Source: Verrucomicrobia bacterium CG1_02_43_26 (GTDB lineage Bacteria; Verrucomicrobiota; Verrucomicrobiia; Opitutales; CG1-02-43-26). Taken from it: 64,000 nucleotides of DNA. The notes below the pieces were generated by a model. The model was not told the DNA's origin and did no database searches. It saw only the letters and a program-made list of their open reading frames with translations. Both the position numbers and the translations under genes were made by a program. The stretch covers positions 32,364 to 96,363 of the forward strand of contig MNWT01000004.1 in NCBI GenBank assembly GCA_001872735.1. The letters run 5' to 3'. This document shows, piece by piece, positions 1,443 to 24,880 of this stretch. Positions within the stretch are counted from its first letter, which is position 1, and the number at the start of each line of letters is the position of its first letter.

Positions 1443-3596
1443 CTATTCTTCTCCGGAGGACAAATAGTCCTTATATCGTTCTTTCCAATCCTTGAGCTTT
1501 TTCAGGTAATAAGTAGGATCATACGGGAGCGTTTCTTTATTAAAATCCTTTACAGAATAGGCTCTCTGCCAATCCGGCTGGCGGGCTTTTTCTCCTTTTG
1601 CAATAAAATAGGCTACCCTGTCTCCCATTCTCGGCATGGGGGTCATTCTAAGCGCCACTTCAAGGGATGCTCTTCGGGGCTTTTTACCCATATCAATTGA
1701 TTTCGCATACGTTTCAGGGTTTTGGCTAAGGCGTTCTCGTTTAGCTAGCAGCATAACATCCATCGTCCCTGATTCTATTTTTCGGGTAAATTCTTCTAAT
1801 AATACTTCGGGTGATACTTCAGACACGCCTAGCTTATAATGGATCAGGCAATTGGTGAGCTCTTTCAAAAAGGGCTCCATTCCTCGAGAGCGTAATGCGG
1901 ATCCTTTTACGATAACGTACTCGCCGTTAAAGAGGGCATAATTCTTGGCTTTATAACAAAACATGGCTGGGTAAGAGCCCGCGTATTCTAGGTCTATGCC
2001 TTCGGGGAGAATAGTGGTCACCAGATCATGCAGCACCATAGGATTGCCCGAATACTCTTGGGCAAACACATACAACCCATCGGTATCAGCTTCCAATACG
2101 GTTGCGCCTCGTCTTTGAAATTCTTCAATCAGGGCGTGCAGCAAATCTCGCCCTTTAGCGGTAAGCTCCGCGGCAAGATCGCTATCCGCAAATCGAGCCC
2201 CATCAAACCCTAGGTAACCGTAAAAGGAATTGATCAATATCTTGAAACTGGCCTGTCTTGCTTCATACTCCTTGCGTAGCACGGGATCTTTTTCTTCATG
2301 CGCTTTCTTTTTATACTCTAAACGATATGCCCGCAATTCTTTAAGGAGCGGGATAAAGATGCCCAAATGATCATTCTTTGGGTTACGGTTCATTTGAATC
2401 AGGAGGCTTGGATAAAGGGAGGCAACGTCAAAATAAAAGACGTTTTTAAAAACTCCCGAGGCAAAGCTTTTGGTATACCCGCCTTCAATCGGGCGCACAG
2501 GAGTGCGATCGGGCAATGCCCAGCGGCCATGATAATATTTTTCAAGTAAAAGTAATTCCACTTTTGTGCCAGTCCCCCTCAATGACGCTTCTTGTAGGGT
2601 AATGGGAAAGTTTTGGGCTTGGGCAAAATAAGTCGGCAAGAGCAAATCAGCAACTCCCTTCGTTTCTCGTAAATCATCCCCTAAATAAGCGAGAAACTGT
2701 GCCCTGTCTTCTTTAAATTGTACCTGTATGCTATTGCCATCAATGTAAGTACGATTATCGGAACTAGAGATACCTAAATGAACGGCTATATTCTTAAGGG
2801 AGTAGGATTCCATCTCACGTTCAGTGAGGTCGTAAATCTGGATCATCAAATAGGTATCAAAAACGGCTCGCCCTGGAATATCACACCGTGGAAAATCAAT
2901 CCAACGTTCAGCAATGCGTATTCGACTATTGCGGAAAATAGCTTCTTGCTGCCCAAAGCGCCCCCATGCACAGGGAATTTTTAGCCGCTTACACCGAATG
3001 CGTAGGTAATCCAAATCAAAACGAAAGCAATTGTGCCCTTCCATCACATCAGGATCGAGTTCCTGGAGCAATTGATTAAAGGCAAGCAAGAGATCTCGTT
3101 CCGCCACATCCGTATAATCTTCCAATACCAGGTAATGCGTTTTTTCACCAAACAATAGGCCAATAGCGAGCACACGATCGTCTTTCTTGCGGGCATCACT
3201 AAACCCGCCGGAAGAGGCTGTCTCGATATCAAACTGGCAGCGGCGCAGTTCCGTAAAGCGCATATCGTGGTATAAACGATATCCATTTTGCAAAAGGTAC
3301 TGGTTCTCTAAATTGCGAATAACTTCGTAGCAATCCTTATCCAGTCTAGCTGCCAATAGATTGTTATAATCCGCAATTTTGTCAAAATGAGCCATACGGC
3401 TCAATCTCCCCTTTCCCGGAAGCTCTTCTAGGTTAACACCTTCACCCGCTCCTCGAGCCAGCCAGGCAAAGGGCTGAAATTTATTTTCGCCTTCAATACG
3501 CGCGTTTCCATCAGACTGGCTAGAGACATGCGCGGTACCCGAAGAATCTATCCAGATGCCACAAAGAGAATGTGATGGAGGAGCAATAATGGTCAT
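1443..3596 (-). CDS. polB: family B DNA polymerase (Pol II-like)
   Basis: Motifs present: FDIET (Exo I), HNCFRFDLDYL (Exo II), DVASLYPS (motif A), KILINSFYGYLG (motif B), EADTDGLYV (motif C) and KAKNYALF (KxY). Confidence 0.9.
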   Translation of the reverse strand: MTIIAPPSHSLCGIWIDSSGTAHVSSQSDGNARIEGENKFQPFAWLARGAGEGVNLEELPGKGRLSRMAHFDKIADYNNLLAARLDKDCYEVIRNLENQYLLQNGYRLYHDMRFTELRRCQFDIETASSGGFSDARKKDDRVLAIGLLFGEKTHYLVLEDYTDVAERDLLLAFNQLLQELDPDVMEGHNCFRFDLDYLRIRCKRLKIPCAWGRFGQQEAIFRNSRIRIAERWIDFPRCDIPGRAVFDTYLMIQIYDLTEREMESYSLKNIAVHLGISSSDNRTYIDGNSIQVQFKEDRAQFLAYLGDDLRETKGVADLLLPTYFAQAQNFPITLQEASLRGTGTKVELLLLEKYYHGRWALPDRTPVRPIEGGYTKSFASGVFKNVFYFDVASLYPSLLIQMNRNPKNDHLGIFIPLLKELRAYRLEYKKKAHEEKDPVLRKEYEARQASFKILINSFYGYLGFDGARFADSDLAAELTAKGRDLLHALIEEFQRRGATVLEADTDGLYVFAQEYSGNPMVLHDLVTTILPEGIDLEYAGSYPAMFCYKAKNYALFNGEYVIVKGSALRSRGMEPFLKELTNCLIHYKLGVSEVSPEVLLEEFTRKIESGTMDVMLLAKRERLSQNPETYAKSIDMGKKPRRASLEVALRMTPMPRMGDRVAYFIAKGEKARQPDWQRAYSVKDFNKETLPYDPTYYLKKLKDWKERYKDYLSSGEE

Positions 3597-3823: not shown

Positions 3824-4483
3824 ATGATTGAAGTCGCTATGACAGATGAAGAACACCATCGCCAACAAAAACACATGCGAATCCGTAGGGTCAAAAAGTG
3901 GCTGCGATACATGCCCAGAAAGGCAACTGTCCACAAATACCCTTTTTTAAAGTGGTTCGCCGCTTCGGCTCGCAAACGCCATTACTTATGGTCATTTCGT
4001 TCGCAACAAGTTGTTCCAGCACTCTACGCGGGTTTTATATTAACGTTCATGCCCCTCTACGGCGTGCAAATTCCACTTGCCTTAACCCTAGCAATTGTTT
4101 TTAGGGCAAACTTGATGATCTTGGTCGCATTGCAGTTGATCAGCAACCCGGCTACCATTGTATTTTTATACCCAATTGCTTATTTCATAGGGGATGCTTG
4201 CATAAATCTGTTTACCGTCTTCGGGAAAGAGGGGCCGGAACTCATGCAGGATTCTTATACGGTAGAAACCGGCATTTTCCTCGGCACCCATGGTAAAAAA
4301 GCAATACGATACGTCATGGCTACCATGCTTGGCGGTATGGTCATGGGGTATTTCTCCGGCCTTATCTCAACCATTTTTTACCGCTATTTTTTAAAAAAGT
4401 GGCAGAAGACTCACCCGCATCCCGCTAAAGAAAAAGCGGACAATGCAAAGTCACCTGCAACTAACCCAGCAGAAAAAAAATAG
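3824..4483 (+). CDS. DUF2062-like membrane protein
   Basis: It has a basic N-terminus followed by several hydrophobic helices. The block RKATVHKYPFLKWF...VPALYAGFILTFMPLYGVQIPLAL resembles DUF2062. An alternative start is at 3839. Confidence 0.5.
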   Translation: MIEVAMTDEEHHRQQKHMRIRRVKKWLRYMPRKATVHKYPFLKWFAASARKRHYLWSFRSQQVVPALYAGFILTFMPLYGVQIPLALTLAIVFRANLMILVALQLISNPATIVFLYPIAYFIGDACINLFTVFGKEGPELMQDSYTVETGIFLGTHGKKAIRYVMATMLGGMVMGYFSGLISTIFYRYFLKKWQKTHPHPAKEKADNAKSPATNPAEKK

Positions 4484-4498
4484 ATACATCAATCCCTC

Positions 4499-5785
4499 AT
4501 GACATTCCGATTGCTCTCCAAAAACTTGCAATATTTCATTACCTCGCTTGTGTTTGCACTTATAACGCATGTTACGGTTGCACAAACCCAAACGGCTCAA
4601 GTGGAACTGGGCATCGATGTCCTGGAGCAAAACAAGTTTCAACTCCTCCAAGGAAAACGCGTTGGCCTACTCACCCACCCCGCGGGAGTAAATCGTCACG
4701 GAGTCAGCACCATAGAAGTTTTAAGGAAGAGTAAATACGTAAATTTGGTCGCCTTATTTGGCCCAGAGCATGGTATTTATGGAAATGAAGCGGCTAATAC
4801 TCCCGTAGAAAATCGTACGGATAAAAGAACTGGGCTGCCTGTCTATTCTCTCTATGGTCAATACAGAAAGCCCACACCGGAAATGCTCAAGGGGCTTGAT
4901 GTCATGGTGGTAGACTTGCAAGACTTGGGCGTACGTTCTTATACCTATATTAGTTGTTTACTCTATGTCATGGAAGCGTGCTTTGAACAGAATGTAGAGG
5001 TAGTCGTGCTCGATCGTCCCAACCCACTCGGAGGCCTTAAGGTAGACGGCCCTATGATGGAAAGGGAATGGATGAGTTATGTAGGCGCCTACAATATACC
5101 TTACGTCTACGGCCTCACCATTGGCGAACTGGCTCGCTGGGCAAAAAGCACTCCGGGTTCCACCATGCTACGCAAAGGGCTAGATCGAAAGGGCAAACTA
5201 CAAGTTGTCACTATGCGCAACTGGAAACGCAGTATGTTGTGGACTGATACTGGTCTGCCTTGGGTGCCCACATCTCCCAATATTCCTGATTTTGCTGCTG
5301 CCATCGGTTACTCTATAACCGGCTTAGGTTCCCAGATAGGTGGCTTTCAACATGGCATCGGCACAGATTATCCCTTTCGCTTATTATCTTACCCAGGAAA
5401 ATCATCCGATGACATTCTAAATGCCTTGCTGGATAGACAAATCGATGGGTTAGGCTTTAAGATTATTGAATATAAGGATCGTCGTGGAAAAATGAATACA
5501 GGTGTATATGTTTTAATCGATGATTGGCAAAAACTAAAGCCCACTGAACTCAGTTTCAATATGATGCAGCTCGCCTGTGAATGGAGCCTGGGGAACCCCT
5601 TTAAGGAAGCATCCAAAAATGATATTGAACTCTTCAATAAACACGTGGGTTCTTCTGCTTGGCTCACTGAGCTCAAAACACGTGGCGAGAGAGCTCGTGT
5701 AAAATATTTCGTAGAGAGATGGGCGCGCGACGCACGTAAGTTCCAAGCCCAAACAGAGCGTTTCTGGTTGTACCCTAAAAACTAG
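4499..5785 (+). CDS. DUF1343 family protein (NamZ-like exo-beta-N-acetylmuramidase), secreted
   Basis: It has an N-terminal signal-like segment. The conserved DUF1343 blocks GLLTHPAGVN, LFGPEHG, DLQDLGVRSYTY and VLDRPNPLGG are present. Confidence 0.75.
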   Translation: MTFRLLSKNLQYFITSLVFALITHVTVAQTQTAQVELGIDVLEQNKFQLLQGKRVGLLTHPAGVNRHGVSTIEVLRKSKYVNLVALFGPEHGIYGNEAANTPVENRTDKRTGLPVYSLYGQYRKPTPEMLKGLDVMVVDLQDLGVRSYTYISCLLYVMEACFEQNVEVVVLDRPNPLGGLKVDGPMMEREWMSYVGAYNIPYVYGLTIGELARWAKSTPGSTMLRKGLDRKGKLQVVTMRNWKRSMLWTDTGLPWVPTSPNIPDFAAAIGYSITGLGSQIGGFQHGIGTDYPFRLLSYPGKSSDDILNALLDRQIDGLGFKIIEYKDRRGKMNTGVYVLIDDWQKLKPTELSFNMMQLACEWSLGNPFKEASKNDIELFNKHVGSSAWLTELKTRGERARVKYFVERWARDARKFQAQTERFWLYPKN

Positions 5786-8899: not shown

Positions 8900-9103
8900 A
8901 TGCCTTCAGAAAAAAAGGAAGAACCTCATAAAAAATTCCTGGGTGTGTACTTTGTCACCTGTGGTATCTATGGTCGTTTATACAAAAATGATGGAGTCAA
9001 TGCTTACATTGGCCGCTGCCCTAAATGCGGAAAACCTTTTCGTATCGGTATCCATGAGGCCAAGGGTACTGAACAGCGCTTCTTTAAAGCGCACTGCCGC
9101 TAA
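8900..9103 (+). CDS. small Cys-containing (zinc-ribbon-like) hypothetical protein
   Basis: This 67-aa ORF carries a CPKCG knuckle plus two more Cys residues (C21, C66). It lies in the gap between yraN and the HDOD genes. The competing ORF 8883..9368 runs antisense through the HDOD gene. Confidence 0.35.
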   Translation: MPSEKKEEPHKKFLGVYFVTCGIYGRLYKNDGVNAYIGRCPKCGKPFRIGIHEAKGTEQRFFKAHCR

Positions 9104-10023
9104 ATCATCCCGTTTAAAATATTCGGCAAACGGGCAATCGTATGTTTCAATGAGGCCACTCCATATTGCGCTTCTTCATCTTCTGTATCAAACAAGATCC
9201 CCCACCCGCTTAATTTATTCCAATCCCCTTCCACAACAGGGTCCAATTGCTCTATCCCATTCACGCCTACAGAGCGAACCATACAATCTGCCACTTGCAC
9301 CGCTGCCGCAAGCAAGGAATATTCCGGCGCCTGCTGAGGTTCCTGCTGAAAGCGCACTGCTTCGATGATATCCGGCGATACTTGGTGTCTCTTTAAATAA
9401 TACGCGCCGATCGCCGCATGATCCCATCCTAAAACCGTTCTTTCTTTCTGTATATACTCTTGGCTATTTTTTGCTTTAAAATTAACCAGGTTAATAAAGT
9501 GTTCAGGAAAAACATACGCCATCACAATTTTCCCAATGTTATGCACTAGCCCAATTAAGTAGTCGGTATCGTCATCGCAATGATAATTAGCAATGGACAA
9601 GATTTCTCGTGAAACAATCGCCGTACCAATGCTATGTCGCCATAGCATCTGCCAGTCGATGTCCTTAAATTTGCTCTGCAATGTATTTAATTCTTCAATA
9701 ATGGGAGTCGCTAGCGCAAGCTCGCGGACTTGTTTCAATCCTAGGTAAAAAATCGCGTCTTCTACATTGCTTACTTTTCTCGTTAACCCAAAAAATACAG
9801 AATTCACCATTTTTAACAAGCGCGCCGTTAATGTCGGATCCCTGCGAATAATTTCAGCAATCTGCGAGGTAACACTGTTCTCAGAACTTAAAAGATCTCC
9901 CAATGCTCTATTAATACTGCGTAACGAGGCTAATTTAGGGCAATCATCAATGCGCTCTTGTATCTCTTCAGAAGAAAGGGGTCTTGATACGTTTTGTGAA
10001 GGTAATGACATGGGAATATTCAT
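9100..10023 (-). CDS. HDOD domain protein
   Basis: IAEIIRRDPTLTARLLKMVNSVFFGL...VEDAIFYLGLKQVRELAL followed by LIGLVHNIGKIV is a typical HDOD signature. Confidence 0.8.
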   Translation of the reverse strand: MNIPMSLPSQNVSRPLSSEEIQERIDDCPKLASLRSINRALGDLLSSENSVTSQIAEIIRRDPTLTARLLKMVNSVFFGLTRKVSNVEDAIFYLGLKQVRELALATPIIEELNTLQSKFKDIDWQMLWRHSIGTAIVSREILSIANYHCDDDTDYLIGLVHNIGKIVMAYVFPEHFINLVNFKAKNSQEYIQKERTVLGWDHAAIGAYYLKRHQVSPDIIEAVRFQQEPQQAPEYSLLAAAVQVADCMVRSVGVNGIEQLDPVVEGDWNKLSGWGILFDTEDEEAQYGVASLKHTIARLPNILNGMI

Positions 10024-10026
10024 TGC

Positions 10027-10881
10027 CTAAACCCTAGCCGATACCAACTGTGACTTCACGCTGTCTATCTTCTCATGCACATCCAATAATATAGAGTGCA
10101 ACAGGGTTTCCGAAAGGGAAAGTTTTTCAAATGTTTCAGGCAAAACATCAAGTGCCCAGGAATCTCGCCCAGGATTATGCCCAATGCCAGCCGCTATCCA
10201 ATTAGCCAAATGCATCATCCACGCGAATTTCGAGTACTTTGGGGAAATGCCTCGGGGATCATACTGAAAGCCAACTGCTTCTGAAATAACCTGCGGAAAC
10301 TTCCATTTTTCCAACAACGCTTGGCTCAACTGCGCGTGATTAAACCCAAGTACCTCTTGTTCAGCTTGGTTCAAGGGGATCATCTTTTCGTCAATCAACG
10401 CAAATACGTTGTCGTACTCTTTGTCAACACACTGGTTGATAACGGTTTTACCGATCGCGTGCAGGAGGCCAATGGTATAACATTCACTTGGGTTTTCCCC
10501 TAGTTTTGTCGCAAGAATTTCCATGCAAAAGGCGCACGCGATTGAATTTTCCCACAGCTGGCCTTCATCCAACACGTAACAGGCCACTTTGCTCCCAACA
10601 AGTCGTTTGGAAATAATCATTCCTACCAGTTTATACAACTCGCGTAGCCCAATACGGCTTATAGCCGTTTCCAGATCATCACAGGGTTCGGAAAAACCGT
10701 AAAACGCACTATTGCTCCACGCAAGTACTTGAGCCGTGAGTGCTTGGTCTACTCGCGCTAATTCAACAATTTCCCAACTGGTGCCTTCTCCACCTTGTAG
10801 TATCGTCAATAGTTTTGGCAATATTTGGGGGCTGGGTGGCAGTTGCTTGTCGTCTGCTAAAATTTCCTGAATAGTAATCAT
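10027..10881 (-). CDS. HDOD domain protein
   Basis: LPPSPQILPKLL...VDQALTAQVLAWSNSAFYGF...LETAISRIGLRELYKLV and GLLHAIGKTV are present. Its start overlaps the cheD stop (ATGA). Confidence 0.8.
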   Translation of the reverse strand: MITIQEILADDKQLPPSPQILPKLLTILQGGEGTSWEIVELARVDQALTAQVLAWSNSAFYGFSEPCDDLETAISRIGLRELYKLVGMIISKRLVGSKVACYVLDEGQLWENSIACAFCMEILATKLGENPSECYTIGLLHAIGKTVINQCVDKEYDNVFALIDEKMIPLNQAEQEVLGFNHAQLSQALLEKWKFPQVISEAVGFQYDPRGISPKYSKFAWMMHLANWIAAGIGHNPGRDSWALDVLPETFEKLSLSETLLHSILLDVHEKIDSVKSQLVSARV

Positions 10882-11408
10882 TGTAATGAAATAATTTTGG
10901 TTCCGGAGGGTGTTTTTACTTCGATAACACCGGTCTCCAGAATTAAATGGAGTGTTCTGTTATTAAACCCGCCTATATCCTCGTCTAGAATCCTAGCTTG
11001 GTAATCCGCTAACGCTGCCTTTGCGGCTGCTACATTACGTTCCCCTATTTTAAAGACATTATTCTCCGTATTCTGTGAAATCACAGAGGCTCCGCCGGCA
11101 ATAAAGAAATTTGTTCTCTGCGGGTCTACACCTAGCTCTGCTAAGGAATCCATAAATACTTTTACCCCCGTGTCCGCAAACATAGAGGGTTGCTTCTTTG
11201 CTTTCTCCACGGAAAGCCTGGAATCAGGCAGCATAAAATGTAATATCCCACCAACACTGTTAATCGGATCATAGGCAACGACACCAACACATGAGCCTAG
11301 CGCATACGTACTCAACACAACACTCGTGTTATTAGACGTTGTCATATCGCCAACGCCGACAACTATTCGTTGAGCATAAAAATTAGAAGTTTTAGGGGAT
11401 CCTCCCAT
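10878..11408 (-). CDS. cheD: CheD-family chemoreceptor glutamine deamidase homolog
   Basis: STYALGSCVGVVAYDP...GGILHFMLPDS carries the catalytic Cys/His context of CheD, and the length of 176 aa fits. Confidence 0.85.
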   Translation of the reverse strand: MGGSPKTSNFYAQRIVVGVGDMTTSNNTSVVLSTYALGSCVGVVAYDPINSVGGILHFMLPDSRLSVEKAKKQPSMFADTGVKVFMDSLAELGVDPQRTNFFIAGGASVISQNTENNVFKIGERNVAAAKAALADYQARILDEDIGGFNNRTLHLILETGVIEVKTPSGTKIISLQ

Positions 11409-11492
11409 GGGTTTTTAATAATAAAGGCTAAATTGAATCCCTGTTATTTTACAGAGGCAAAAGCAGGGGGCTAACATAATAGGGATATATAA

Positions 11493-13466
11493 CTATATTA
11501 TATAGGCTTCGTTCAATTCATCGTCAAGTTCTTCTCGTTGGTTTTTATACTTTGTCAAATTGTAGGTCTCCGTGTTACGTTTTTTATCAAGATCATCTTT
11601 TCGCGATTTCAATATCCTTAAAACCGTCTTCGCTTTCTCTTGTATCGCTTTTTCCTGCAACAACACTTTTCGTGACTTGGTTGGAGAAGCGCTGGGCTTA
11701 GAAACGGCATCACCTGCCCAAATCACCCCACCAATGATCAATCCCGCTCCTAACGCCACCGAAATCACGGAAACATTTTCCGCGAATATTACGCCAAAAT
11801 ACAATAACAGCACTCCCATCGCCACCATGAGAAAAATATATGCCGAGGGAGAGCCTTTCGGCTTCATAACCCCCGCAAGGGTCTCTTTGGCCGCCTTTAC
11901 GCCTCCTTCGTAATGCCTAATCAATGCCTCTTGCTTTTTGATGTCCGTCACGCAGGCTGCTATTTCTTGCTCGTTTTTTTCGCGCTCTTTGTTGGACTTT
12001 TTGAGCTTCTCGTCTGCCTCATCTAATCTTTTCTTTAAATCTTCGCTTTTCGCTTTCCATAAATTGCCTATCTTCGCAAATAGATCTTTTCTTTGTTTGT
12101 GCGGAAATAAGTCCAAATACGTTTTGATCGCATCGTTAAACTCAGGTTTGATAACCATAGTAAAGCGTTTCTTCATTAAATACTGGTCGTTATCTCGTTC
12201 TATAAAGCGGGTCAGTTCTTTTTCTTGTTTGCTAAAAATGATACGCACTAGATCCATATTAAAGTGGTTAAAGTGCGATAAATCCGCAAGTCGCTCTCTC
12301 GACTCTAATTGCGGTATTATCCGCAATACTTCATCATATACAGCCACCCTATGCGCGTAATCTTGGTATTTATCTTTAAGGGTTGATGATAAATGCCAGT
12401 TAACAATACCTTCGCAAACTGGCTCGGCCACTTCAAATCCTCCCGCGATCCCTGTTGAGCTCAACTCTTCTTGCTCTCTCAACCAGGAAAATGCCTCCAA
12501 CACTTCTTCCGGAGCCCTAAACAATTGTAGGCCTTCCACAGTCACCCGTTTCAAATAGCCTGCCCACAGTAACCACTTCTTTTGTACTTCCGTCTTACCT
12601 TCAAAGAGGGTCCCTATGCCTTCGGCGCCTTTTGTCGCATCGTTTTTGGGGATACCAACTACTTTCTCTATCGCAGCTTCCAATTGACCCGGAATCCCTT
12701 TACACGCTTCATAAACCGGATCCAAAAACTTACCGGGTATCTCTCTAAAATTCAGATAGGAAAGAATATCTCGCTTCGTAAATACTTCTAGTGCCACTTC
12801 ACTTAAATGAGAAAACAATGCCGGCCAATCTTCTTGTATTTCCGCTGACCCTTTAAATGCTTTTTTGCCGCTTATAATGTAGCGTACGTCTAGGTCAGGG
12901 TCCAGTTCTTCAAAGGCTTTTACGATACTATAGTGAAAGAACTTCCGATACTCGGGTGAAAAATCATCGTAATCGTCTAAGACAAAAATAACTCTCAGCT
13001 CTTGGCCGCGTTTTTCTTCATAATCATCATAGGCTTTGTAAATGCCTTTTATCAAGAGCCTTACCCACTTCTGGCATTGATCCAATGAGGCTTGCGAGGA
13101 AAAGCCTTGGTAATCGAAGGGATAGGTCGTAGCTTCTCCTTCTCCAGTACCTTCATAAATGCTTTCCAGCTTGGAATTAATCATCTCTTTCAAGGAAACA
13201 AGTTCATCTCGATTCACTTGTATTGCCTGGGTCAGCAACAGGGGCCACTTCTCAAACCACTCTTTCCCTATGCCTTTCGGAGAAAGCCAAACAAAGGGGG
13301 TGTCTATTTCTTTTAACAGGCTCCATAGCTGTCTCACCAATGTCGTCTTCCCTATACCCGTTTGCCCCGCAATGGAAAACAACCCTATACGGTCGTCCTT
13401 CTGGGTAAGTCCGTTCAGTAGCTTGTCTAATTCGACTTCGCGGTTGATTAATGGGGCATCCGACAT
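11493..13466 (-). CDS. NB-ARC/STAND-like P-loop ATPase with C-terminal coiled coils and two TM helices
   Basis: Walker A is FSIAGQTGIGKTTLVRQLW and Walker B is RVIFVLDDYDDF. The C-terminal part has K/E-rich heptad-like segments flanking AYIFLMVAMGVLLLYFGVIFA and VSVISVALGAGLIIGGVIWAG. Confidence 0.7.
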   Translation of the reverse strand: MSDAPLINREVELDKLLNGLTQKDDRIGLFSIAGQTGIGKTTLVRQLWSLLKEIDTPFVWLSPKGIGKEWFEKWPLLLTQAIQVNRDELVSLKEMINSKLESIYEGTGEGEATTYPFDYQGFSSQASLDQCQKWVRLLIKGIYKAYDDYEEKRGQELRVIFVLDDYDDFSPEYRKFFHYSIVKAFEELDPDLDVRYIISGKKAFKGSAEIQEDWPALFSHLSEVALEVFTKRDILSYLNFREIPGKFLDPVYEACKGIPGQLEAAIEKVVGIPKNDATKGAEGIGTLFEGKTEVQKKWLLWAGYLKRVTVEGLQLFRAPEEVLEAFSWLREQEELSSTGIAGGFEVAEPVCEGIVNWHLSSTLKDKYQDYAHRVAVYDEVLRIIPQLESRERLADLSHFNHFNMDLVRIIFSKQEKELTRFIERDNDQYLMKKRFTMVIKPEFNDAIKTYLDLFPHKQRKDLFAKIGNLWKAKSEDLKKRLDEADEKLKKSNKEREKNEQEIAACVTDIKKQEALIRHYEGGVKAAKETLAGVMKPKGSPSAYIFLMVAMGVLLLYFGVIFAENVSVISVALGAGLIIGGVIWAGDAVSKPSASPTKSRKVLLQEKAIQEKAKTVLRILKSRKDDLDKKRNTETYNLTKYKNQREELDDELNEAYII

Positions 13467-13613
13467 ATTTTTATAACTGTCCTATTTTCATGTCGTCATA
13501 AATCGCAATAACTTAAATCACTATAGGAACAAAAAACTGTCCAGGTTGTCTACAAATTATTGAAGTGACAGGACTGCCCAACCTAGATAAACTTTCTATA
13601 TATCCAATAAATC

Positions 13614-14060
13614 ATGCTCACTAGTCCGCTCAATTTAAAACAGCACATAAAAAAGCCCAGCTATCACTTTGTCTGTATCGCTTTTCTTGATGCCCTGATC
13701 ATCGCTTTCTTTTTCTCCTTATTCGGTTCCCGTTTTATCTCCTCTCCGGGAATAGCTATTACTGTGCCCGATGCAAGCGCGGACATCGTCACCCAAAGCA
13801 TCAAAACGGGTAATGTGATCGTTTTAACCATTAAATCAGGCAATATGATTCTGTTCGATGGGGGTATCCATAACCTTAAAACACTTCCCGTCTTGCTTGA
13901 AAAATACCTGCATAACAAAAACAGGGAGTATAGTCTTGTCCTCGTTAAAGCGGATAAAACGGTTGAAATAAACACACTTGCCCAGCTCGCTGGCATCATA
14001 AAAGCCCAAGGAATCACTCAAATACAATTAGCCGCAAACACTCGTGAATCTTCTCTTTAA
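13614..14060 (+). CDS. ExbD/TolR family biopolymer transport protein
   Basis: It has a single N-terminal TM helix (FVCIAFLDALIIAFFFSLF) and a periplasmic domain ending LVLVKADKTVEINTLAQLAGIIKAQGI. Confidence 0.6.
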   Translation: MLTSPLNLKQHIKKPSYHFVCIAFLDALIIAFFFSLFGSRFISSPGIAITVPDASADIVTQSIKTGNVIVLTIKSGNMILFDGGIHNLKTLPVLLEKYLHNKNREYSLVLVKADKTVEINTLAQLAGIIKAQGITQIQLAANTRESSL

Positions 14061-14757
14061 AAAAGCGCTTCCGGTGAACTCGTTTCTCAATATCGCTATT
14101 GTGGCGAGCTTGGTTGTGTATGCCTTAGTTTACTTTTTTCTCTCTGGGTCAATTAACGCTCCCTATTTCCCTTCGTTTCAAACGGGTCATTTTCAGGTTA
14201 ATAGTCTACCGGAGGCATCGGATTTCATCGCGTTTGAGCTCTATAACACCGAGCCTCTTTTCCTCCCTTCCGAATGGAGCGCAAACAGCAATATCCGTAA
14301 CCAAAATTATACAACCGAGCAATTGGCTCTATTAAGCGCCTACGCCCCAAAGACACTAGAGGTAAATGTTCCTTCCACAACATTTTTGCCGTCCCGCTTC
14401 GCTAAAACAAGGGCGTACAGCGTTTTATTCACCTCCCCTTTCAATCTTTACAAACAGGATAAGGCTCCTTCGCTCAATAGGCTGCCAAATAAAGTCTACT
14501 TAAAGCAGGAAAACTTTAATGGCGCGTCACCCTCAACTTTAATCGATTTCGAAGCCTCAAGTAATACCAGCCAAGCCATTTGGTATCCCGTTTCTTTCGC
14601 TTTGCAGGTGCAGGACAGCCTGCCAATTGGTAAGCCCCAGCTCCTCAATTCTTCCGGCAACCTGGATATCGACCAAGAGCTTCTCTCCCGACTAGAGGGC
14701 TACATAAACCGCCAAAATCTTGAAGACGGTTATTACTGTATGACGTGGAGCCACTAA
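14044..14757 (+). CDS. hypothetical membrane-anchored protein
   Basis: A 237-aa ORF (GTG start) that overlaps the exbD-like stop by 17 nt. It has one N-terminal TM helix (FLNIAIVASLVVYALVYFFL). I recognise no family. Confidence 0.4.
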   Translation: MNLLFKKALPVNSFLNIAIVASLVVYALVYFFLSGSINAPYFPSFQTGHFQVNSLPEASDFIAFELYNTEPLFLPSEWSANSNIRNQNYTTEQLALLSAYAPKTLEVNVPSTTFLPSRFAKTRAYSVLFTSPFNLYKQDKAPSLNRLPNKVYLKQENFNGASPSTLIDFEASSNTSQAIWYPVSFALQVQDSLPIGKPQLLNSSGNLDIDQELLSRLEGYINRQNLEDGYYCMTWSH

Positions 14758-20496: not shown

Positions 20497-20988
20497 ATGG
20501 ACCACCTACATGCTTATTGGCGCATGGAATACGTTGAAAGCTCTAAACAACCAGATGACAAGAGCTTGTTCACGAACATCTTGGAATCCGGAAACGATAG
20601 AGCGGCGCTCATCCTCTATCGCAGCCAACACGCTTTTCTCATCCTGAACAAATTTCCCTATAACGCCGGCCACCTCATGGCTGTTCCGCTTAAGGAAGTC
20701 CCTACATTGGCCGACCTTAACCTTGAAGAACGCGCCGATTACATGGATATTATCATTAAAGGACAAGAGATCCTCACCAAAGCCCTTTCGCCTAGCGGCT
20801 TTAATATAGGCATGAATATCGGCAGCGCTGCCGGAGCAGGCATACCAGGTCACCTTCATTGCCATATCGTCCCTCGCTGGCAGGGGGATACTAACTTCAT
20901 GCCGGTGGTAGGCAACACACGTGTACTCCCTCAAGCACTGGACACCATGTGGCAGCGTCTTAAACAATTCGCTACCGAAGAGGCCTAA
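20497..20988 (+). CDS. HIT family hydrolase
   Basis: The histidine triad GHLHCHIVPRW and FLILNKFPYNAGHLM. Confidence 0.85.
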   Translation: MDHLHAYWRMEYVESSKQPDDKSLFTNILESGNDRAALILYRSQHAFLILNKFPYNAGHLMAVPLKEVPTLADLNLEERADYMDIIIKGQEILTKALSPSGFNIGMNIGSAAGAGIPGHLHCHIVPRWQGDTNFMPVVGNTRVLPQALDTMWQRLKQFATEEA

Positions 20989-21034
20989 AACCGCTCCCCT
21001 TAACCCTTTTCACGACACGATACCCAACAACTCA

Positions 21035-21997
21035 ATGGAATCAAAAACACTACATTTCGCAAACCCAAGATTACTCTCTCAGCTATATCACAATAATGAG
21101 GCAAACCTCACTCATATCGAAAAAGCATTCAACGTGAGTCTTACAACTCGCGATGATTGGCTCACCATAGAGGGTACCCAAGATGACATCGCCCGTGTCT
21201 CCGAATTATTCGATATCCTGAACCTTGCCCGCGCACAGGGGCTCAATATTAATGACTCCGATTTCGATCACATGCTTATTGGCGTTGTAGAAGGGCGCGC
21301 CCATGAATTCAGGGAAACGTTTGAAAACCCGCTTATTCTCAAAATACGCAACAAAAGCCTGGTCCCAAAAACCATCAACCAAAAGCGCTACCTACAATTC
21401 ATTCAAAAACATGAGATCGTCTTAAGTGTAGGGCCCGCCGGTACCGGCAAAACCTACCTGGCCGTAGCCGCCGCACTCGATGCCCTCCTCAATAAAAAAG
21501 TCGAGAAAATCATCCTAACAAGGCCAGCCGTAGAGGCTGGAGAAGCCCTCGGCTTCCTCCCAGGAGACCTCCAGGAAAAGATCCTCCCCTACCTACGCCC
21601 ACTATACGATGCTATGTACGACATCCTTGGCCCCGAAGACACCGAAAAAATGATGGAAAAGCGTATCATCGAAATCGCACCCCTAGCCTACATGCGTGGC
21701 CGCACCCTCTCCAACGCCTACGTCATCCTAGACGAAGCCCAAAACACCACCTCAGAGCAAATGATGATGTTCCTCACCCGCCTAGGCGACAACAGCCGCA
21801 TGATCGTCACCGGCGACATCACACAAATCGACCTCCCCCTTAAAAACAGATCGGGCCTCAAGCAAGCCATCTCCGTATTAAACAATATACAAGGCATAAA
21901 GATATTTTATTTCGAAAATTCAGACGTCGTAAGACACCCTCTTGTGCAGAAGATAATAGAAGCCTACGAACACTTCTTCAACGACCGCGAACGCTAA
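21035..21997 (+). CDS. phoH: PhoH family ATPase
   Basis: Walker A is GPAGTGKTYLAVA, and ILDEAQNTT is present. The ATG at 21035 (MESKTLHF) avoids overlap with the HIT gene. Confidence 0.9.
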   Translation: MESKTLHFANPRLLSQLYHNNEANLTHIEKAFNVSLTTRDDWLTIEGTQDDIARVSELFDILNLARAQGLNINDSDFDHMLIGVVEGRAHEFRETFENPLILKIRNKSLVPKTINQKRYLQFIQKHEIVLSVGPAGTGKTYLAVAAALDALLNKKVEKIILTRPAVEAGEALGFLPGDLQEKILPYLRPLYDAMYDILGPEDTEKMMEKRIIEIAPLAYMRGRTLSNAYVILDEAQNTTSEQMMMFLTRLGDNSRMIVTGDITQIDLPLKNRSGLKQAISVLNNIQGIKIFYFENSDVVRHPLVQKIIEAYEHFFNDRER

Positions 21998-22017
21998 TTT
22001 ATACTGAATTTAACACG

Positions 22018-24405
22018 ATGCCCATCCAAAAACCAAAACGCGCCCGCCGCAAACGCCGCGACGAAGAATCCATCACCCCGGAAGCCTTTCTGGAAAAGAA
22101 ACATATCGCCGGCGCCATAGTTTTTGCACTATTTGCCATAACTACAATCGCCATATGCTTCGGAGGGCAGACGCCAGCTACACTACAAGTCTTACCAAAA
22201 CAAATAGCGAACACAAGAATCGTTGCCAACTTCCCCTTCACCTACGAAAGCAAAATATTAACTCAACGCAACCAAGAACAGCTTCGCAAGCGCATTGCGC
22301 CCGTATATCATCTAGACATGTCTGTCTACGAAAAGTTCAAAAAAGACATGATCCTGTTAGCTGAGGGCCTAACCGAAATTGAAGACAAAGGTATCAAGCA
22401 GCAATTAAGCCCAACTGAAATAGAAAGCGAAGTCAGGGACTTAAAAACCAAATTTAGCAATAAAACCGGCTACTTCTTAAACGCGGAGGACTTAGAGTCC
22501 ATACTCGTATCTACGGACAAGAACGTACAGGAACAGCTATTTGAAGAAGGTTTAATCATTCTTCGTGAAATATTCAGAGAAGGTATTTACGATCCAACCG
22601 AGCTAGGGGCAAAGGAAGGCAAAACATCTCCCTATTTTTATAGCATCGAAATCGAAGGACGGCATAGTGACTCTCGAGTCCTATCCGAAGAAGAAGCACT
22701 ACGCTTTTTGCGAATTAATCTATCCGCGCTTGATATAGACGCGAAGGTAGCTAGGGCCATGTTCCGTATTCTTAAGAGCGGCATAAGCTCAAACTTAATA
22801 TACGATGCGGCAAAAAGCGAAAAAAAGGCAGAAGATGCCATTGCGAAAATGCAACCCGTAACTGTTTCTATAAGCGAAGGGCAAACCATAATAGAGCCGG
22901 GAACAATTGTAGGACCAGAGCAATACGAAACGCTCATTGCCTATCGTGATAGTGCAAAAAAACATGAAGATATTGGATTAGGCTTTAACGCCTCCCTCAT
23001 TGAGCTTTCTGTTGCAACTCTTGGCATTCTCTTTGGAGCCGTTGTCTACCTGCGCTTAAACATGCCCAAACTATTAAAAAGCAAAAGAGATCTAACTTTC
23101 TGCGCAATTCTTTTTTTATTAAACCTGTTTATAATACGACTCATTCTCGAACTTGGTGAAACCGACCTTTTTGGTGCCAATTCTGTTTTCCTTTCGATTC
23201 TGCCCTACATGGCGCCAATTGCTCTCAGCGCGATTCTAATAACAATTATGCTGAATGCTCGATCTGCTATCATTGTCTCCCTATTGGTCAGTTGTTTTTA
23301 TGCCCTCATGCTCGGGAACGTTATACGCTTCCTACTACCTAGCATACTGGTCTGCCTAGCTGCGATTCATTATTCCAACCATATCGTTTTGAGAACAAGG
23401 GTTATACGCGCAGGAGCAATTGCCGGCCTGATAATGGCAATTTGCGCCGCCTTTTTAGGAATATTTAATGACATCAATGTATTTACCATTCTTAATCAAA
23501 TGTTAACCGCACAAATTGCGGGTATATGTACGGGATTGATAGCGATTTTCATTATGCCCCTATTGCAAAGCGTGTTTAAGATGACAACAGACATCACCTT
23601 ACTCGAGTTAACAGATTTCAATCACCCCCTGTTAAGACAACTACAATTAGAAGCCCCCGGAACATACCACCATAGCTTAATGGTAGCCAATTTAGCAGAA
23701 CGTGCCGCGGCGGAAATAAAAGCAAATCCGCTAGTATGCCGCGTCGGTGCCCTCTTTCACGACATTGGAAAGGTTGTGAAACCAGAGTATTTTGTTGAGA
23801 ATCAAAAGGATGGCATTAACCCGCATATGGATCGCAATCCCTCAATGAGCGCATTAGTAATCAAAAGCCACGTAAAAGAGGGTTTATTGATGGGCAAAGA
23901 ATCAAAGCTCCCCAAAGCTGTATTGGATATAATTGAGCAGCACCATGGAACTACGCTCATTCAGTACTTCTTCGACAAGGCTCAACGCCAAAAAAAGCAA
24001 ACAAGTTTACCCTTCATCGCGCCGGAAACGATTATTGGGGAAGAAAAAATTGATGAATCTACGTTCCGCTACGACGGTCCGAAACCCCAGTTTATAGAAT
24101 GCGCCATTGTAATGATTGCCGATACGATAGAGGCCGCTAGCCGCACCTTGAAAAAAGTAAGCGCCCAAAGCATCGAGGAATTAGTAGATCAGGCCTGCAA
24201 GGAAAAGATTGAAGATGGGCAGTTAACCGAATGTCCAATCACCCTGAAGGAAATTGAAAAGCTCAAGAAAAGTTTCATAGTGACAATACTCAACACGCTA
24301 CATTCACGAATAGAGTACCCCAAGGGAAAAGAATCCTCAAGGAGCGCTTATGAACCCAAACAACCCATCAAGATACCTGCGGACGACACAGGAGGTGATG
24401 TTTAA
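22018..24405 (+). CDS. 7TM-HD membrane phosphohydrolase (PgpH/YqfF-like)
   Basis: It has an extracytoplasmic N-terminal domain, a block of about 7 TM helices, and an HD domain (HHSLMVANLAE...ALFHDIGK...EQHHG). The phoH-yqfF-ybeY synteny is conserved. Confidence 0.85.
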   Translation: MPIQKPKRARRKRRDEESITPEAFLEKKHIAGAIVFALFAITTIAICFGGQTPATLQVLPKQIANTRIVANFPFTYESKILTQRNQEQLRKRIAPVYHLDMSVYEKFKKDMILLAEGLTEIEDKGIKQQLSPTEIESEVRDLKTKFSNKTGYFLNAEDLESILVSTDKNVQEQLFEEGLIILREIFREGIYDPTELGAKEGKTSPYFYSIEIEGRHSDSRVLSEEEALRFLRINLSALDIDAKVARAMFRILKSGISSNLIYDAAKSEKKAEDAIAKMQPVTVSISEGQTIIEPGTIVGPEQYETLIAYRDSAKKHEDIGLGFNASLIELSVATLGILFGAVVYLRLNMPKLLKSKRDLTFCAILFLLNLFIIRLILELGETDLFGANSVFLSILPYMAPIALSAILITIMLNARSAIIVSLLVSCFYALMLGNVIRFLLPSILVCLAAIHYSNHIVLRTRVIRAGAIAGLIMAICAAFLGIFNDINVFTILNQMLTAQIAGICTGLIAIFIMPLLQSVFKMTTDITLLELTDFNHPLLRQLQLEAPGTYHHSLMVANLAERAAAEIKANPLVCRVGALFHDIGKVVKPEYFVENQKDGINPHMDRNPSMSALVIKSHVKEGLLMGKESKLPKAVLDIIEQHHGTTLIQYFFDKAQRQKKQTSLPFIAPETIIGEEKIDESTFRYDGPKPQFIECAIVMIADTIEAASRTLKKVSAQSIEELVDQACKEKIEDGQLTECPITLKEIEKLKKSFIVTILNTLHSRIEYPKGKESSRSAYEPKQPIKIPADDTGGDV

Positions 24406-24880
24406 TATAAATTGCATGAGGGAAGTTTTCATCAATAATCAACATCCTAACCTGAAGTTTGAAGCTGACTCGCTTGAAAAGATTATTGCGCTATTAGACA
24501 GTATTCCCGAGGCTAAAATACCACCAGGGGAGCTTTCCATCGCATTTTTAGAGCGCCCCATCATTATCGAGCTACATAAAAATTTCTTTAATGACCCCAC
24601 GCCAACGGATGTTATGACCTTTACCGGTGATCCTGAGATGGATTTTGCCGGAGAAATTTGCGTTTCACCTGACCAAGCTATGGAAGTGCATAATGACCAC
24701 CGCGTCACATTTCCTTACGAACTCATGCTTTATATCGTGCACGGTTGGCTACACCTGGCGGGCTATAATGACAAAACAACTGAAGATATTCAGCAAATAC
24801 GGCATATGGAAAGCGTGGTGATGCAAAAAATACTTGAATGTGAGGGCTTGCCTGAGTTTGTTTTTTTGGATAACGTATAG
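24398..24880 (+). CDS. ybeY: rRNA maturation endoribonuclease YbeY
   Basis: The HGWLHLAGYND motif is present. The third His of the canonical HGxLHLxGYDH motif appears to be replaced (YND). An alternative start is at 24416. Confidence 0.8.
   Translation: MFNINCMREVFINNQHPNLKFEADSLEKIIALLDSIPEAKIPPGELSIAFLERPIIIELHKNFFNDPTPTDVMTFTGDPEMDFAGEICVSPDQAMEVHNDHRVTFPYELMLYIVHGWLHLAGYNDKTTEDIQQIRHMESVVMQKILECEGLPEFVFLDNV

What the first reader, a model, noticed from the sequence alone, without database searches (positions are those of the whole stretch)
9100..13466. Orphan CheD embedded in a tight operon with a STAND-like ATPase and two HDOD proteins
Four co-oriented genes are arranged as follows:
- An NB-ARC/STAND-like ATPase.
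- An 84-nt gap, then CheD.
- An ATGA start/stop overlap, then HDOD-1.
- A 3-nt gap, then HDOD-2.

CheD normally deamidates methyl-accepting chemoreceptors and partners with CheC within che operons. Here no cheA/W/Y/R/B/C gene and no MCP gene is visible in 64 kb. HDOD domains are degenerate HD-type modules of poorly understood signalling function.

The pairing of a switch-like STAND NTPase, a glutamine deamidase and two HDOD proteins is not an arrangement I know as described. It could be a new signalling or stress/defence module in which CheD modifies a non-chemoreceptor target.
Basis: partly seen in the sequence, partly recalled or inferred. Interest (0 to 1): 0.65.

Follow-up and report, generated by a model that had tools for sequence, protein, structure and literature searches.

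The report
CheD–HDOD chemotaxis module with membrane ATPase
A conserved four-gene operon in a groundwater verrucomicrobium joins the chemoreceptor-modifying enzyme CheD to two different HDOD proteins and an uncharacterised membrane-anchored switch ATPase; relatives show that the CheD–HDOD pair belongs to their chemotaxis gene clusters, which gives the poorly understood HDOD domain a concrete partner to test.

Summary
Four co-oriented minus-strand genes (ATPase 13466-11493, CheD 11408-10878, HDOD-1 10881-10027, HDOD-2 10023-9100) have the stated 84-nt gap, ATGA overlap and 3-nt gap. The 64 kb holds no other che, MCP, receiver or flagellar gene.

The adjacency is conserved. The same cassette occurs in five lineages in two deep clades, with ATPase identity of only 23-36%.

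CheD is not a true orphan in evolutionary terms. Its Opitutales orthologues (54-60% identity) sit inside canonical flagellar/che clusters (CheR-CheB-REC/HD-CheW-CheD). There CheD is followed, usually with a 4-nt overlap, by the HDOD-1 orthologue. Two cassette-bearing relatives have a CheW gene within 0.5-5 kb.

The ATPase belongs to an undescribed family of about 119 clusters at 50% identity. It has a STAND/Cdc6-like nucleotide-binding module, a coiled-coil stalk and a transmembrane hairpin. A distant member pairs with an HDOD-1-like gene alone.

Best reading: this is an accessory branch of the verrucomicrobial chemosensory system, with HDOD-1 as the CheD partner where CheC would be expected, relocated in this lineage. 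Whether this genome has chemoreceptors elsewhere could not be tested.

Verdict: a new variant of a known kind, of moderate interest.

The parts
11493..13466 (-). 657-aa membrane-anchored STAND/Cdc6-like P-loop NTPase, a member of an undescribed family. Layout: nucleotide-binding, helical and winged-helix module (aa ~1-290), helical region to ~455, long helix 459-532, TM hairpin, long helix 596-651.
   Evidence: ORF. The family has 119 representative clusters, mostly full-length at 620-690 aa. Family members hit AAA_16 (34 of 48) and ATPase_2 (15 of 48). The AF2 model has pLDDT 88. Foldseek matches Cdc6/ORC, plant NLRs and Apaf-1 at E 3e-7 to 1e-4.
13344..13367 (-). Walker A motif (aa 34-41, GQTGIGKT).
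   Evidence: G39 is present in 48 of 48 family members and K40 in 44 of 48.
12966..12992 (-). Walker B motif (aa 159-167, VIFVLDDYD).
   Evidence: A hydrophobic run followed by D164 and D165. D or E at position 164 occurs in 37 of 48 members.
12684..12701 (-). GxP motif (aa 256-261, KGIPGQ), a STAND signature.
   Evidence: G257 is present in 48 of 48 members and P259 in 44 of 48.
11709..11846 (-). Transmembrane hairpin (aa ~541-586) at the tip of the coiled-coil stalk.
   Evidence: Kyte-Doolittle 19-residue windows score above 1.6 across aa 538-588. The AF2 model has helices at 541-560 and 567-586. G551 (48 of 48) and G580 (45 of 48) are conserved.
11409..11492 (-). 84-nt intergenic spacer between the ATPase and CheD. 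It contains a weak hairpin and a weak promoter-like match, so differential expression is possible.
   Evidence: Sequence. The scan found no more sites than shuffled controls. The corresponding gaps in relatives are 40-93 nt.
10878..11408 (-). CheD-family glutamine deamidase, 176 aa, with the catalytic Thr35, Cys40 and His57 intact.
   Evidence: PF03975 at 95 bits. The alignment to T. maritima CheD (2F9Z) keeps the T, C and H positions. It is 65% identical to the orthologue in L019, a level like the housekeeping neighbours.
10027..10881 (-). HDOD-1 ('H1' type), 284 aa. Its start overlaps the CheD stop (ATGA). The metal site is degenerate.
   Evidence: PF08668, E=4e-47. Aligned to the di-iron HDOD 3HC1 it reads WENS, HA, H and QY at the ligand motifs, so it keeps 2 of the 6 aligned ligand positions. 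H1 orthologues follow CheD in 9 or more lineages. Orthogroup tree.
9100..10023 (-). HDOD-2 ('H2' type), 307 aa. It is an old paralogue of H1 (about 25% identity) and resembles the HDOD of PDB 9QZK.
   Evidence: PF08668, E=2e-46, and HD at 30.8 bits. It keeps three His ligands but has HD changed to HN and HH changed to QQ, as in PDB 9QZK. H2 orthologues are 45-71% identical to one another across lineages. They occur in the four ATPase cassettes whose sequence could be read (window, L019, L022, L026) and in L020.
13467..13613 (.). 147-nt divergent intergenic region between the ATPase and the ExbD-like gene. It presumably holds the operon promoter.
   Evidence: Sequence. The only promoter-like consensus match here is on the + strand, and no site count exceeded the shuffled controls. 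The promoter assignment is inference only.

Best explanation
The four genes are one operon encoding an accessory branch of the verrucomicrobial (Opitutales-type) chemosensory system. The steps below are marked as shown or inferred.

1. CheD. Shown: it is a CheD-family enzyme with its catalytic residues intact. Inferred: it deamidates chemoreceptor glutamines, as CheD does elsewhere.
2. HDOD-1. Shown: it has a degenerate metal site and is almost always translationally coupled to CheD. Inferred: it is the stoichiometric CheD-binding partner or regulator and occupies the place that CheC holds in Bacillus/Thermotoga-type systems.
3. The cassette version found here. Shown: a membrane-anchored STAND/Cdc6-like NTPase and a second HDOD resembling PDB 9QZK (HDOD-2) are added. 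Inferred: the NTPase acts as a nucleotide-dependent switch or scaffold at the membrane that recruits or releases the HDOD-CheD complex, and so controls when CheD acts.
4. Location. Shown: in this lineage the module lies away from any che or flagellar genes, among housekeeping genes. Inferred: it still serves chemoreceptors encoded elsewhere in the genome.
For: 1. The cassette ATPase-CheD-H1-H2 recurs in the window, L019, L022, L026 and the P0063 contig. ATPase identity across these is only 23-36%.
2. CheD orthologues at 54-60% identity lie in flagellar/che clusters, and CheD is directly followed by H1. Examples are L021 and L023 (CheR-CheB-REC/HD_5-x-CheW-x-CheD-H1), L029-31 (CheW nearby) and L032. 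In Rariglobus a further HDOD paralogue follows CheA, convergent on CheD.
3. The CheD and H1 reading frames overlap by 4 nt in 8 of 10 lineages and by 11 nt in one more.
4. CheW lies 0.5 kb downstream of the cassette in L022 and 5 kb upstream in L026.
5. No CheC family is annotated within 10 kb of CheD in any che-embedded locus.
6. H1 is the hub: it pairs with CheD without the ATPase, and an H1-like HDOD pairs with the ATPase without CheD in the P0002 lineage.
7. CheD keeps the Thr/Cys/His positions. CheD, H1 and H2 are 65%, 70% and 58% identical between the window and L019, similar to GlgA, SNF2, G6PD and PolB at 61-75%. They are therefore under strong constraint in the relocated form.
8. The ATPase keeps Walker A, Walker B and GxP motifs, folds like Cdc6/ORC/NLR modules and has a TM hairpin.
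9. HDOD-only proteins repeatedly give swimming phenotypes in other bacteria (PMC11813219; PMC11004494). One HDOD protein, SadB, acts as a protein adaptor without needing a ligand in its pocket (PMC12075610).
Against: - No che, MCP, receiver or flagellar gene lies in the 64 kb or in the 20 kb around the L019 cassette. Use of chemoreceptors in this organism is therefore an assumption.
- No physical CheD-HDOD or HDOD-ATPase interaction has been shown or modelled.
- H1 and H2 carry no conserved receptor-like [ASTG]xx[EQ][EQ]xx[ASTG] motif, which CheC-style mimicry might predict.
- The P0002-type ATPase-HDOD pair lies beside RecC, MmeI and toxin-antitoxin genes, with no che genes in view.
- CheD scores far below the NCBIfam equivalog cutoffs (119 bits against 240).
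- Context is known for only a handful of the roughly 119 ATPase clusters.
Confidence: 0.55

Rival explanations
1. The cassette is an autonomous signalling, stress or defence device. The STAND-like NTPase senses a cue and oligomerises, the HDOD proteins act as adaptors, and CheD deamidates a non-chemoreceptor target. The organism has no chemoreceptors.
For: - No che or MCP gene lies in the 64 kb or around the L019 cassette.
- STAND NTPases are often defence or death switches; fold matches include NLR resistosomes and Apaf-1.
- The ATPase-HDOD pair without CheD sits near RecC, MmeI restriction-modification and RelB/YafQ genes.
- The ATPase evolves fast: 36% identity where neighbours are 58-75%.
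Against: - No cassette gene matches a PADLOC model, apart from a sub-threshold HD-domain hit of HDOD-2 to Cas3 (E=7e-4, 17.8 bits).
- The ATPase family has no relative in viral contigs.
- The locus is syntenic among housekeeping genes and has ordinary GC content, so it is not an island.
- CheD and H1 orthologues are embedded in che/flagellar clusters.
- CheW lies close to the cassette in L022 and L026.
- The CheD active site is unchanged.
Confidence: 0.2
2. The module is a nucleotide second-messenger node, for example for c-di-GMP. One or both HDOD proteins bind or hydrolyse a nucleotide and link it to motility. CheD is a passenger gene with its usual role.
For: - The che clusters of relatives carry a REC-HD_5 (HD-GYP-like) protein next to CheD.
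- H2 passes the Pfam HD threshold (30.8 bits; 42 bits in L022).
- H2 in L020, L022 and L026 keeps five of six metal-ligand positions.
- According to PMC12075610, earlier work reported c-di-GMP binding by P. fluorescens SadB.
Against: - H1 lacks four of six ligand positions in every lineage, and the window's H2 lacks three (HD changed to HN, HH changed to QQ).
- P. aeruginosa SadB showed no c-di-GMP binding and did not need its pocket (PMC12075610).
- The tight translational coupling is specifically between CheD and H1.
Confidence: 0.15
3. The adjacency has no functional meaning. It is an accident of rearrangement that placed a decaying CheD next to unrelated genes.
For: The window lineage has lost the che context around CheD.
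Against: - The gene order recurs in five lineages across two deep clades.
- The 4-nt overlap is conserved.
- CheD, H1 and H2 are conserved at housekeeping levels, and the catalytic residues are intact.
Confidence: 0.03

Closest known systems
CheC-CheD pair of Bacillus subtilis and Thermotoga maritima chemotaxis (PDB 2F9Z)
   Same: - The CheD-family enzyme is present with the aligned Thr/Cys/His positions intact.
- A small partner gene is tightly linked to cheD.
- In relatives the pair lies inside che clusters with CheR, CheB and CheW.
   Different: - The partner is an HDOD protein, not a CheC/CheX/FliY-type phosphatase.
- No CheC family appears in any locus examined.
- No receptor-mimic motif is found in the partner.
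- Here a membrane NTPase and a second HDOD are added, and the che context is missing.
Stand-alone HDOD proteins that affect motility: PSPTO_4229, PFL_0554/PFL_5871, Cj0248, and SadB and GsmR
   Same: - H1 and H2 are single-domain HDOD proteins of about 280-310 aa, the same size class as PSPTO_4229 (273 aa).
- They are homologous to Cj0248 (PDB 1VQR).
- H2 shares the HN and RFQQ(D/E)P motifs with the HDOD of PDB 9QZK.
- These proteins have a genetic link to motility.
   Different: - None of those proteins has been connected with CheD or with a STAND-like NTPase.
- SadB carries an extra YbaK-like domain and GsmR a receiver domain.
- The mechanism of those proteins, apart from the SadB adaptor role, is unknown.
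STAND NTPases (AAA_16, ATPase_2, NB-ARC, NACHT) and Cdc6/ORC
   Same: - Walker A, Walker B (hhhhDD) and GxP motifs, plus the N-terminal (F/I)GRxxEL motif in the family consensus.
- A nucleotide-binding, helical and winged-helix-like architecture matched by Foldseek over about 400 columns.
   Different: - There is no TPR, WD40 or LRR sensor arm. The protein has a helical domain, a roughly 70-residue coiled-coil stalk and a C-terminal TM hairpin instead.
- The window protein is below every Pfam gathering threshold.
- The family has no Pfam, NCBIfam or PADLOC model of its own.

Membership tests
CheD (PF03975, chemoreceptor glutamine deamidase) | Pfam CheD domain above the gathering score. | tested here: met
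   95.3 bits against a cutoff of 25, covering the full 108-position profile.
CheD (PF03975, chemoreceptor glutamine deamidase) | Catalytic Thr/Cys/His. The T21/C27/H44 numbering of T. maritima CheD is recalled from Chao et al. 2006, not read here. | tested here: met
   Thr35, Cys40 and His57 align to the 'TLGLGSC' and 'HVMLPDS' segments of 2F9Z.
CheD (PF03975, chemoreceptor glutamine deamidase) | NCBIfam equivalog-level score. | tested here: not met
   The best score is 119 bits against a cutoff of 240 (NF041119). This is a divergent clade. Its orthologues in Opitutales are nevertheless named CheD and sit in che clusters.
CheD (PF03975, chemoreceptor glutamine deamidase) | Co-occurrence with MCP, CheA and CheW in the same genome. 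| not testable with these tools
   They are absent from the 64-kb window. The rest of the MAG could not be reached. The feature is met in relatives.
CheC-CheD type adaptation module | A CheC/CheX/FliY-family partner gene. | tested here: not met
   No CheC family appears in the window or within 10 kb of CheD in L017, L021, L023 or L024.
HDOD (PF08668) | Pfam HDOD domain above the gathering score, in both proteins. | tested here: met
   160.6 and 158.3 bits against a cutoff of 22.9. PDB homologues include 3M1T, 3HC1, 1VQR and 9QZK.
Catalytic HD-superfamily phosphohydrolase | An intact H...HD...H...HH...D metal-binding set, as in the di-iron site of 3HC1. | tested here: not met
   H1 reads N, HA, H and QY. 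H2 reads H, HN, H and QQ.
STAND NTPases. The definition (Leipe, Koonin and Aravind 2004) is recalled, not read here. | Walker A, Walker B with paired acidic residues, and the GxP motif. | tested here: met
   G39 in 48 of 48 members, K40 in 44 of 48, D164/D165 present, G257 in 48 of 48 and P259 in 44 of 48.
STAND NTPases. The definition (Leipe, Koonin and Aravind 2004) is recalled, not read here. | The N-terminal hhGRExE motif. | tested here: inconclusive
   The family consensus is FIGRxxEL. The window protein reads LINREVEL, with Asn in place of Gly.
STAND NTPases. The definition (Leipe, Koonin and Aravind 2004) is recalled, not read here. | Nucleotide-binding, helical and winged-helix domain order. 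| tested here: met
   Foldseek matches Cdc6 (1FNN, E=2.6e-7), ORC2 and the NLRs NRC2/3/4, Roq1 and Sr35, and Apaf-1, over about 400 columns. TM-scores are low (0.2-0.26 on the query) because of domain orientation and the extra C-terminal half.
STAND NTPases. The definition (Leipe, Koonin and Aravind 2004) is recalled, not read here. | A C-terminal repeat-type sensor or scaffold arm (TPR, WD40 or LRR). | tested here: not met
   The C-terminal half is helical, with a coiled coil and a TM hairpin. No repeat family is detected.
NB-ARC (PF00931) | Pfam gathering score. | tested here: not met
   21.0 bits against 23.5, and only profile positions 2-49 of 248. A few family members just pass the cutoff, but on the P-loop region only.
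Known anti-phage defence systems (PADLOC-DB 2.0) | A match to any defence-protein model. | tested here: not met
   The ATPase, CheD and H1 have no hit. H2 has one marginal HD-domain hit to Cas3 (E=7e-4).

The most novel reading that the evidence does not exclude
The cassette is a self-contained membrane signalling device in a lineage that has lost chemoreceptors. The STAND-like NTPase switches on a cue. The two HDOD proteins act as adaptors. CheD, whose fold is recalled (not tested here) to resemble deamidase toxins, deamidates a new non-receptor substrate. This would be the first CheD working outside chemotaxis and the first biochemical role for HDOD proteins.
Probability: 0.15. Interest if true: 0.85.

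Novelty: new variant of a known kind. Interest (0 to 1): 0.55.

Why it matters
- HDOD is a widespread signalling domain. Several mutants give motility phenotypes, but no general mechanism is known.
- A translationally coupled CheD-HDOD pair, conserved across Opitutales che clusters that show no CheC, gives a specific and cheap hypothesis to test: HDOD-1 binds and regulates CheD.
- The cassette also exposes an uncharacterised family of membrane-anchored STAND-like NTPases, about 119 clusters at 50% identity, whose only known genomic partner is an HDOD protein.
- If this genome turns out to lack chemoreceptors, CheD would have a new substrate. That would be a more important result.

Tried and rejected
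- The genome-collection scan with CheD returned only two distant, irrelevant loci, from a Bacillota and a Cesiribacteraceae genome. Neither locus has an HDOD gene near CheD, so they served as negative controls.
- The 48-sequence ATPase alignment was too divergent for a metagenome scan. A 6-sequence alignment yielded one locus, L022, which proved very informative.
- A profile search of the ATPase family through the word-indexed database recovered only two true members. The roughly 119 family members from the exhaustive search could therefore not be looked up for genomic context.
- I tested whether the ATPase coiled coil, H1 or H2 carries a conserved receptor-like deamidation or methylation consensus. 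None is conserved. The ideas that the ATPase is the CheD substrate, or that an HDOD mimics a receptor, have no support.
- The longer ATPase homologues (730-806 aa) have no informative fused domain.
- The promoter and terminator scan gave counts no higher than shuffled controls.
- The viral-contig scan found nothing.
- Literature searches found nothing for the MAG identifiers and nothing relevant for CheD in Verrucomicrobia.
- The small conserved protein upstream of CheD in che-embedded loci is unrelated to the ATPase and has no Pfam match.

Full report
**Observation.** The four minus-strand ORFs are exactly where the finding places them: ATPase 13466..11493 (657 aa), CheD 11408..10878 (176 aa), HDOD-1 10881..10027 (284 aa) and HDOD-2 10023..9100 (307 aa).
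- Pfam confirms CheD (95 bits; cutoff 25) and both HDODs (E about 1e-46).
- The 84-nt gap, the ATGA overlap and the TAG-GCA-ATG junction were read directly from the sequence.
- GC content is ordinary for the window.
- The 64 kb holds no other chemotaxis or flagellar gene. tblastn with Opitutaceae CheA, CheW, CheR, CheB, MCP, receiver proteins and FliE/F/G/I recovers only CheD and the two HDODs.
- The larger ORFs are housekeeping genes: zwf, opcA, glgA, an SNF2 helicase, phoH-ybeY, PEPCK, pyrB/C and polysaccharide genes.

**Source.** The CheD sequence occurs on 13 public contigs. One is a 385-kb contig of GCA_002322915.1, and others come from groundwater MAGs named 'Verrucomicrobia bacterium CG1_02_43_26' and 'CG_4_9_14_3_um_filter_43_20'.

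**Is the adjacency conserved?** Yes, at two levels.
- *The whole cassette, ATPase-CheD-H1-H2.* It recurs in five places:
  - the window;
  - L019, which is fully syntenic and has 65% CheD identity;
  - L022, a metagenome contig with 23-24% ATPase identity;
  - L026, where H1 is interrupted by a scaffold gap rather than decayed;
  - the P0063 contig, where a 642-aa protein with no Pfam match precedes CheD-HDOD-HDOD. No DNA could be fetched for this contig, so that protein could not be tested against the ATPase model.

  In a rough neighbour-joining tree these CheDs fall in two separate clades.
- *The CheD-H1 pair alone.* It occurs inside or beside flagellar/che clusters:
  - L021 and L023 read fliE-I | CheR-CheB-REC/HD_5-x-CheW-x-CheD-H1;
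  - L029-31 have CheW nearby;
  - L032 also carries the pair.

  The CheD and H1 frames overlap by 4 nt in eight of ten lineages and by 11 nt in one more.
- *Variants.*
  - L020 has a REC-Hpt-like protein in place of the ATPase, then CheD-H1-H2, with FlgO and an MCP-signal protein nearby.
  - In Rariglobus hedericola and another Opitutaceae genome, CheD sits after CheR-CheB-REC/HD_5, and a third HDOD paralogue follows CheA.
  - In L022 a CheW gene lies 0.5 kb downstream of the cassette. In L026 one lies 5 kb upstream.
- No CheC-family gene appears in any of these loci.
- The two non-verrucomicrobial CheD loci that were fetched have no HDOD gene nearby.

**The HDOD proteins.** They fall into three old orthogroups.
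- H1 follows CheD. H1 orthologues are 38-46% identical across lineages.
- H2 is the second gene. H2 orthologues are 45-71% identical.
- The third type is linked to CheA.
- H1 and H2 are only about 17-27% identical, so they are not a recent tandem duplication.
- Against the di-iron HDOD 3HC1, H1 has lost four of the six ligand positions in every lineage.
- The window's H2 keeps three His ligands but reads HN and QQ at the other positions, like PDB 9QZK. Some H2 orthologues keep the HH pair.
- Neither protein looks like an active HD hydrolase in this genome.

**The ATPase.** An exhaustive HMMER search finds 119 representative clusters (66 at E<=1e-10). Most are full-length at 620-690 aa.
- It is therefore a real family with no model of its own in Pfam, NCBIfam or PADLOC.
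- Members match AAA_16 (34 of 48) and ATPase_2 (15 of 48).
- Walker A, Walker B and the GxP motif are conserved, and the family consensus begins FIGRxxEL.
- The AF2 model (pLDDT 88) shows a nucleotide-binding, helical and winged-helix-like module. This is followed by a helical region, a 74-residue helix, a TM hairpin (aa 541-586) and a 56-residue helix.
- Foldseek matches Cdc6/ORC, plant NLRs and Apaf-1.
- 'STAND-like' is therefore fair. However, there is no repeat-type sensor arm, and the window protein is below every Pfam threshold, NB-ARC included.
- A distant member, P0002 (23-24% identity), is followed directly by an H1-like HDOD gene and no CheD.
- H1 is thus the common element between the CheD pairs and the ATPase pairs.

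**Constraint.** The table compares identity between the window and L019.

| Protein | Identity (%) |
|---|---|
| CheD | 65 |
| H1 | 70 |
| H2 | 58 |
| Housekeeping neighbours (GlgA, SNF2, G6PD, PolB) | 61-75 |
| ATPase | 36 |

CheD also keeps the Thr/Cys/His positions of T. maritima CheD. The relocated operon is therefore maintained by selection and is not decaying.

**Interpretation.** The most economical reading is that CheD-H1 is an ancestral component of the Opitutales chemosensory cluster.
- H1 acts as the CheD partner where CheC is absent.
- The ATPase and H2 form an add-on that places this pair under a membrane-bound nucleotide switch.
- In the window lineage the cassette has moved away from the che genes.
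- The gene linkages are shown. The CheD-H1 complex, the role of the NTPase and the use of chemoreceptors in this organism are inferred.

That reading, an autonomous module with a non-receptor CheD target, is not excluded. I could not inspect the rest of the genome, and the P0002-type pair lies among RecC, MmeI and toxin-antitoxin genes.
- Four observations weigh against a defence role:
  - there are no PADLOC hits;
  - there are no viral relatives;
  - the locus has a housekeeping, syntenic setting;
  - relatives have che genes close to the cassette or the pair.
- A second-messenger role for the HDODs is possible but weakened by their degenerate pockets.

**Literature.** No paper in the searchable library mentions HDOD and CheD together.
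- HDOD-only proteins have swimming phenotypes in Pseudomonas, and earlier work cited there reports the same for Xanthomonas GsmR and Campylobacter Cj0248 (PMC11813219, PMC11004494).
- SadB works as a proteolysis adaptor without needing a ligand in its pocket (PMC12075610).
- None of these has been tied to CheD or to a STAND-like NTPase.

**Verdict.** The 'orphan, non-chemotaxis' interpretation is only partly supported. This is a new variant of a known kind: a chemosensory accessory module with a previously unreported CheD-HDOD coupling and a new membrane NTPase family. The key unknown is whether this genome has chemoreceptors, and a simple whole-genome domain scan would answer it.

Noticed in passing
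L021:9562-9984, L023:9625-9978, L029:4303-4695, L032:3-356: A small conserved protein family (117-140 aa, no Pfam match) lies directly upstream of CheD-H1 in every che-embedded locus. Members are mutually homologous (E 1e-7 to 1e-22) and unrelated to the ATPase. It may be a further uncharacterised chemotaxis component.
   Followed up: partly
L022:4985-5938, L026:5720-6673, P0063 contig 4315-5271: An ATP-grasp gene (PylC-like_N/ATP-grasp_3) lies co-oriented directly upstream of the ATPase in one cassette clade: 32 nt upstream in L022 and about 100 nt in L026 and the P0063 contig. The window and L019 have no such gene.
   Followed up: no
window 11493-11507 (ATPase C-terminus): The ATPase family ends in a conserved E-P-Y-(V/I) tail (E in 34, P in 36 and Y in 37 of 48 members). 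The window protein reads EAYII. This could be a docking motif, but that is unexplained.
   Followed up: partly
window 8900-9103 (+): A 67-aa ORF with a CPKC motif converges on HDOD-2 and overlaps its stop codon by 4 nt. It is called as a gene in the public MAG annotation but not in L019.
   Followed up: no
window 13614-14757 (+): An ExbD/TolR-like gene and a 237-aa gene with no Pfam match are transcribed divergently from the ATPase. The pair is syntenic in L019 but diverges fast (34% and 27% identity). No ExbB or TolQ homologue is seen next to it.
   Followed up: partly
window 32818-35625 (+): A 935-aa protein with many ankyrin repeats. This is unusual for free-living bacteria and is often seen in host-associated ones.
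   Followed up: no
window 45883-49206 (+): A 1107-aa ORF with no Pfam match lies in the lowest-GC stretch of the window (36.5% at 46-48 kb). It may be horizontally acquired.
   Followed up: no
L017:10581-13596, L024:14755-17053: In Opitutaceae a third, distinct HDOD paralogue is encoded immediately after CheA. This is a second HDOD-che linkage that I did not find described.
   Followed up: partly
window 1443-3596 (-): A family-B DNA polymerase (DNA_pol_B_exo1 plus DNA_pol_B). It is conserved in L019 at 61% identity.
   Followed up: no
window 20921-24880 (+): A phoH, 7TM-receptor-HD hydrolase and ybeY operon. This is another HD-type signalling protein in the window, apparently unrelated to the cassette.
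   Followed up: no
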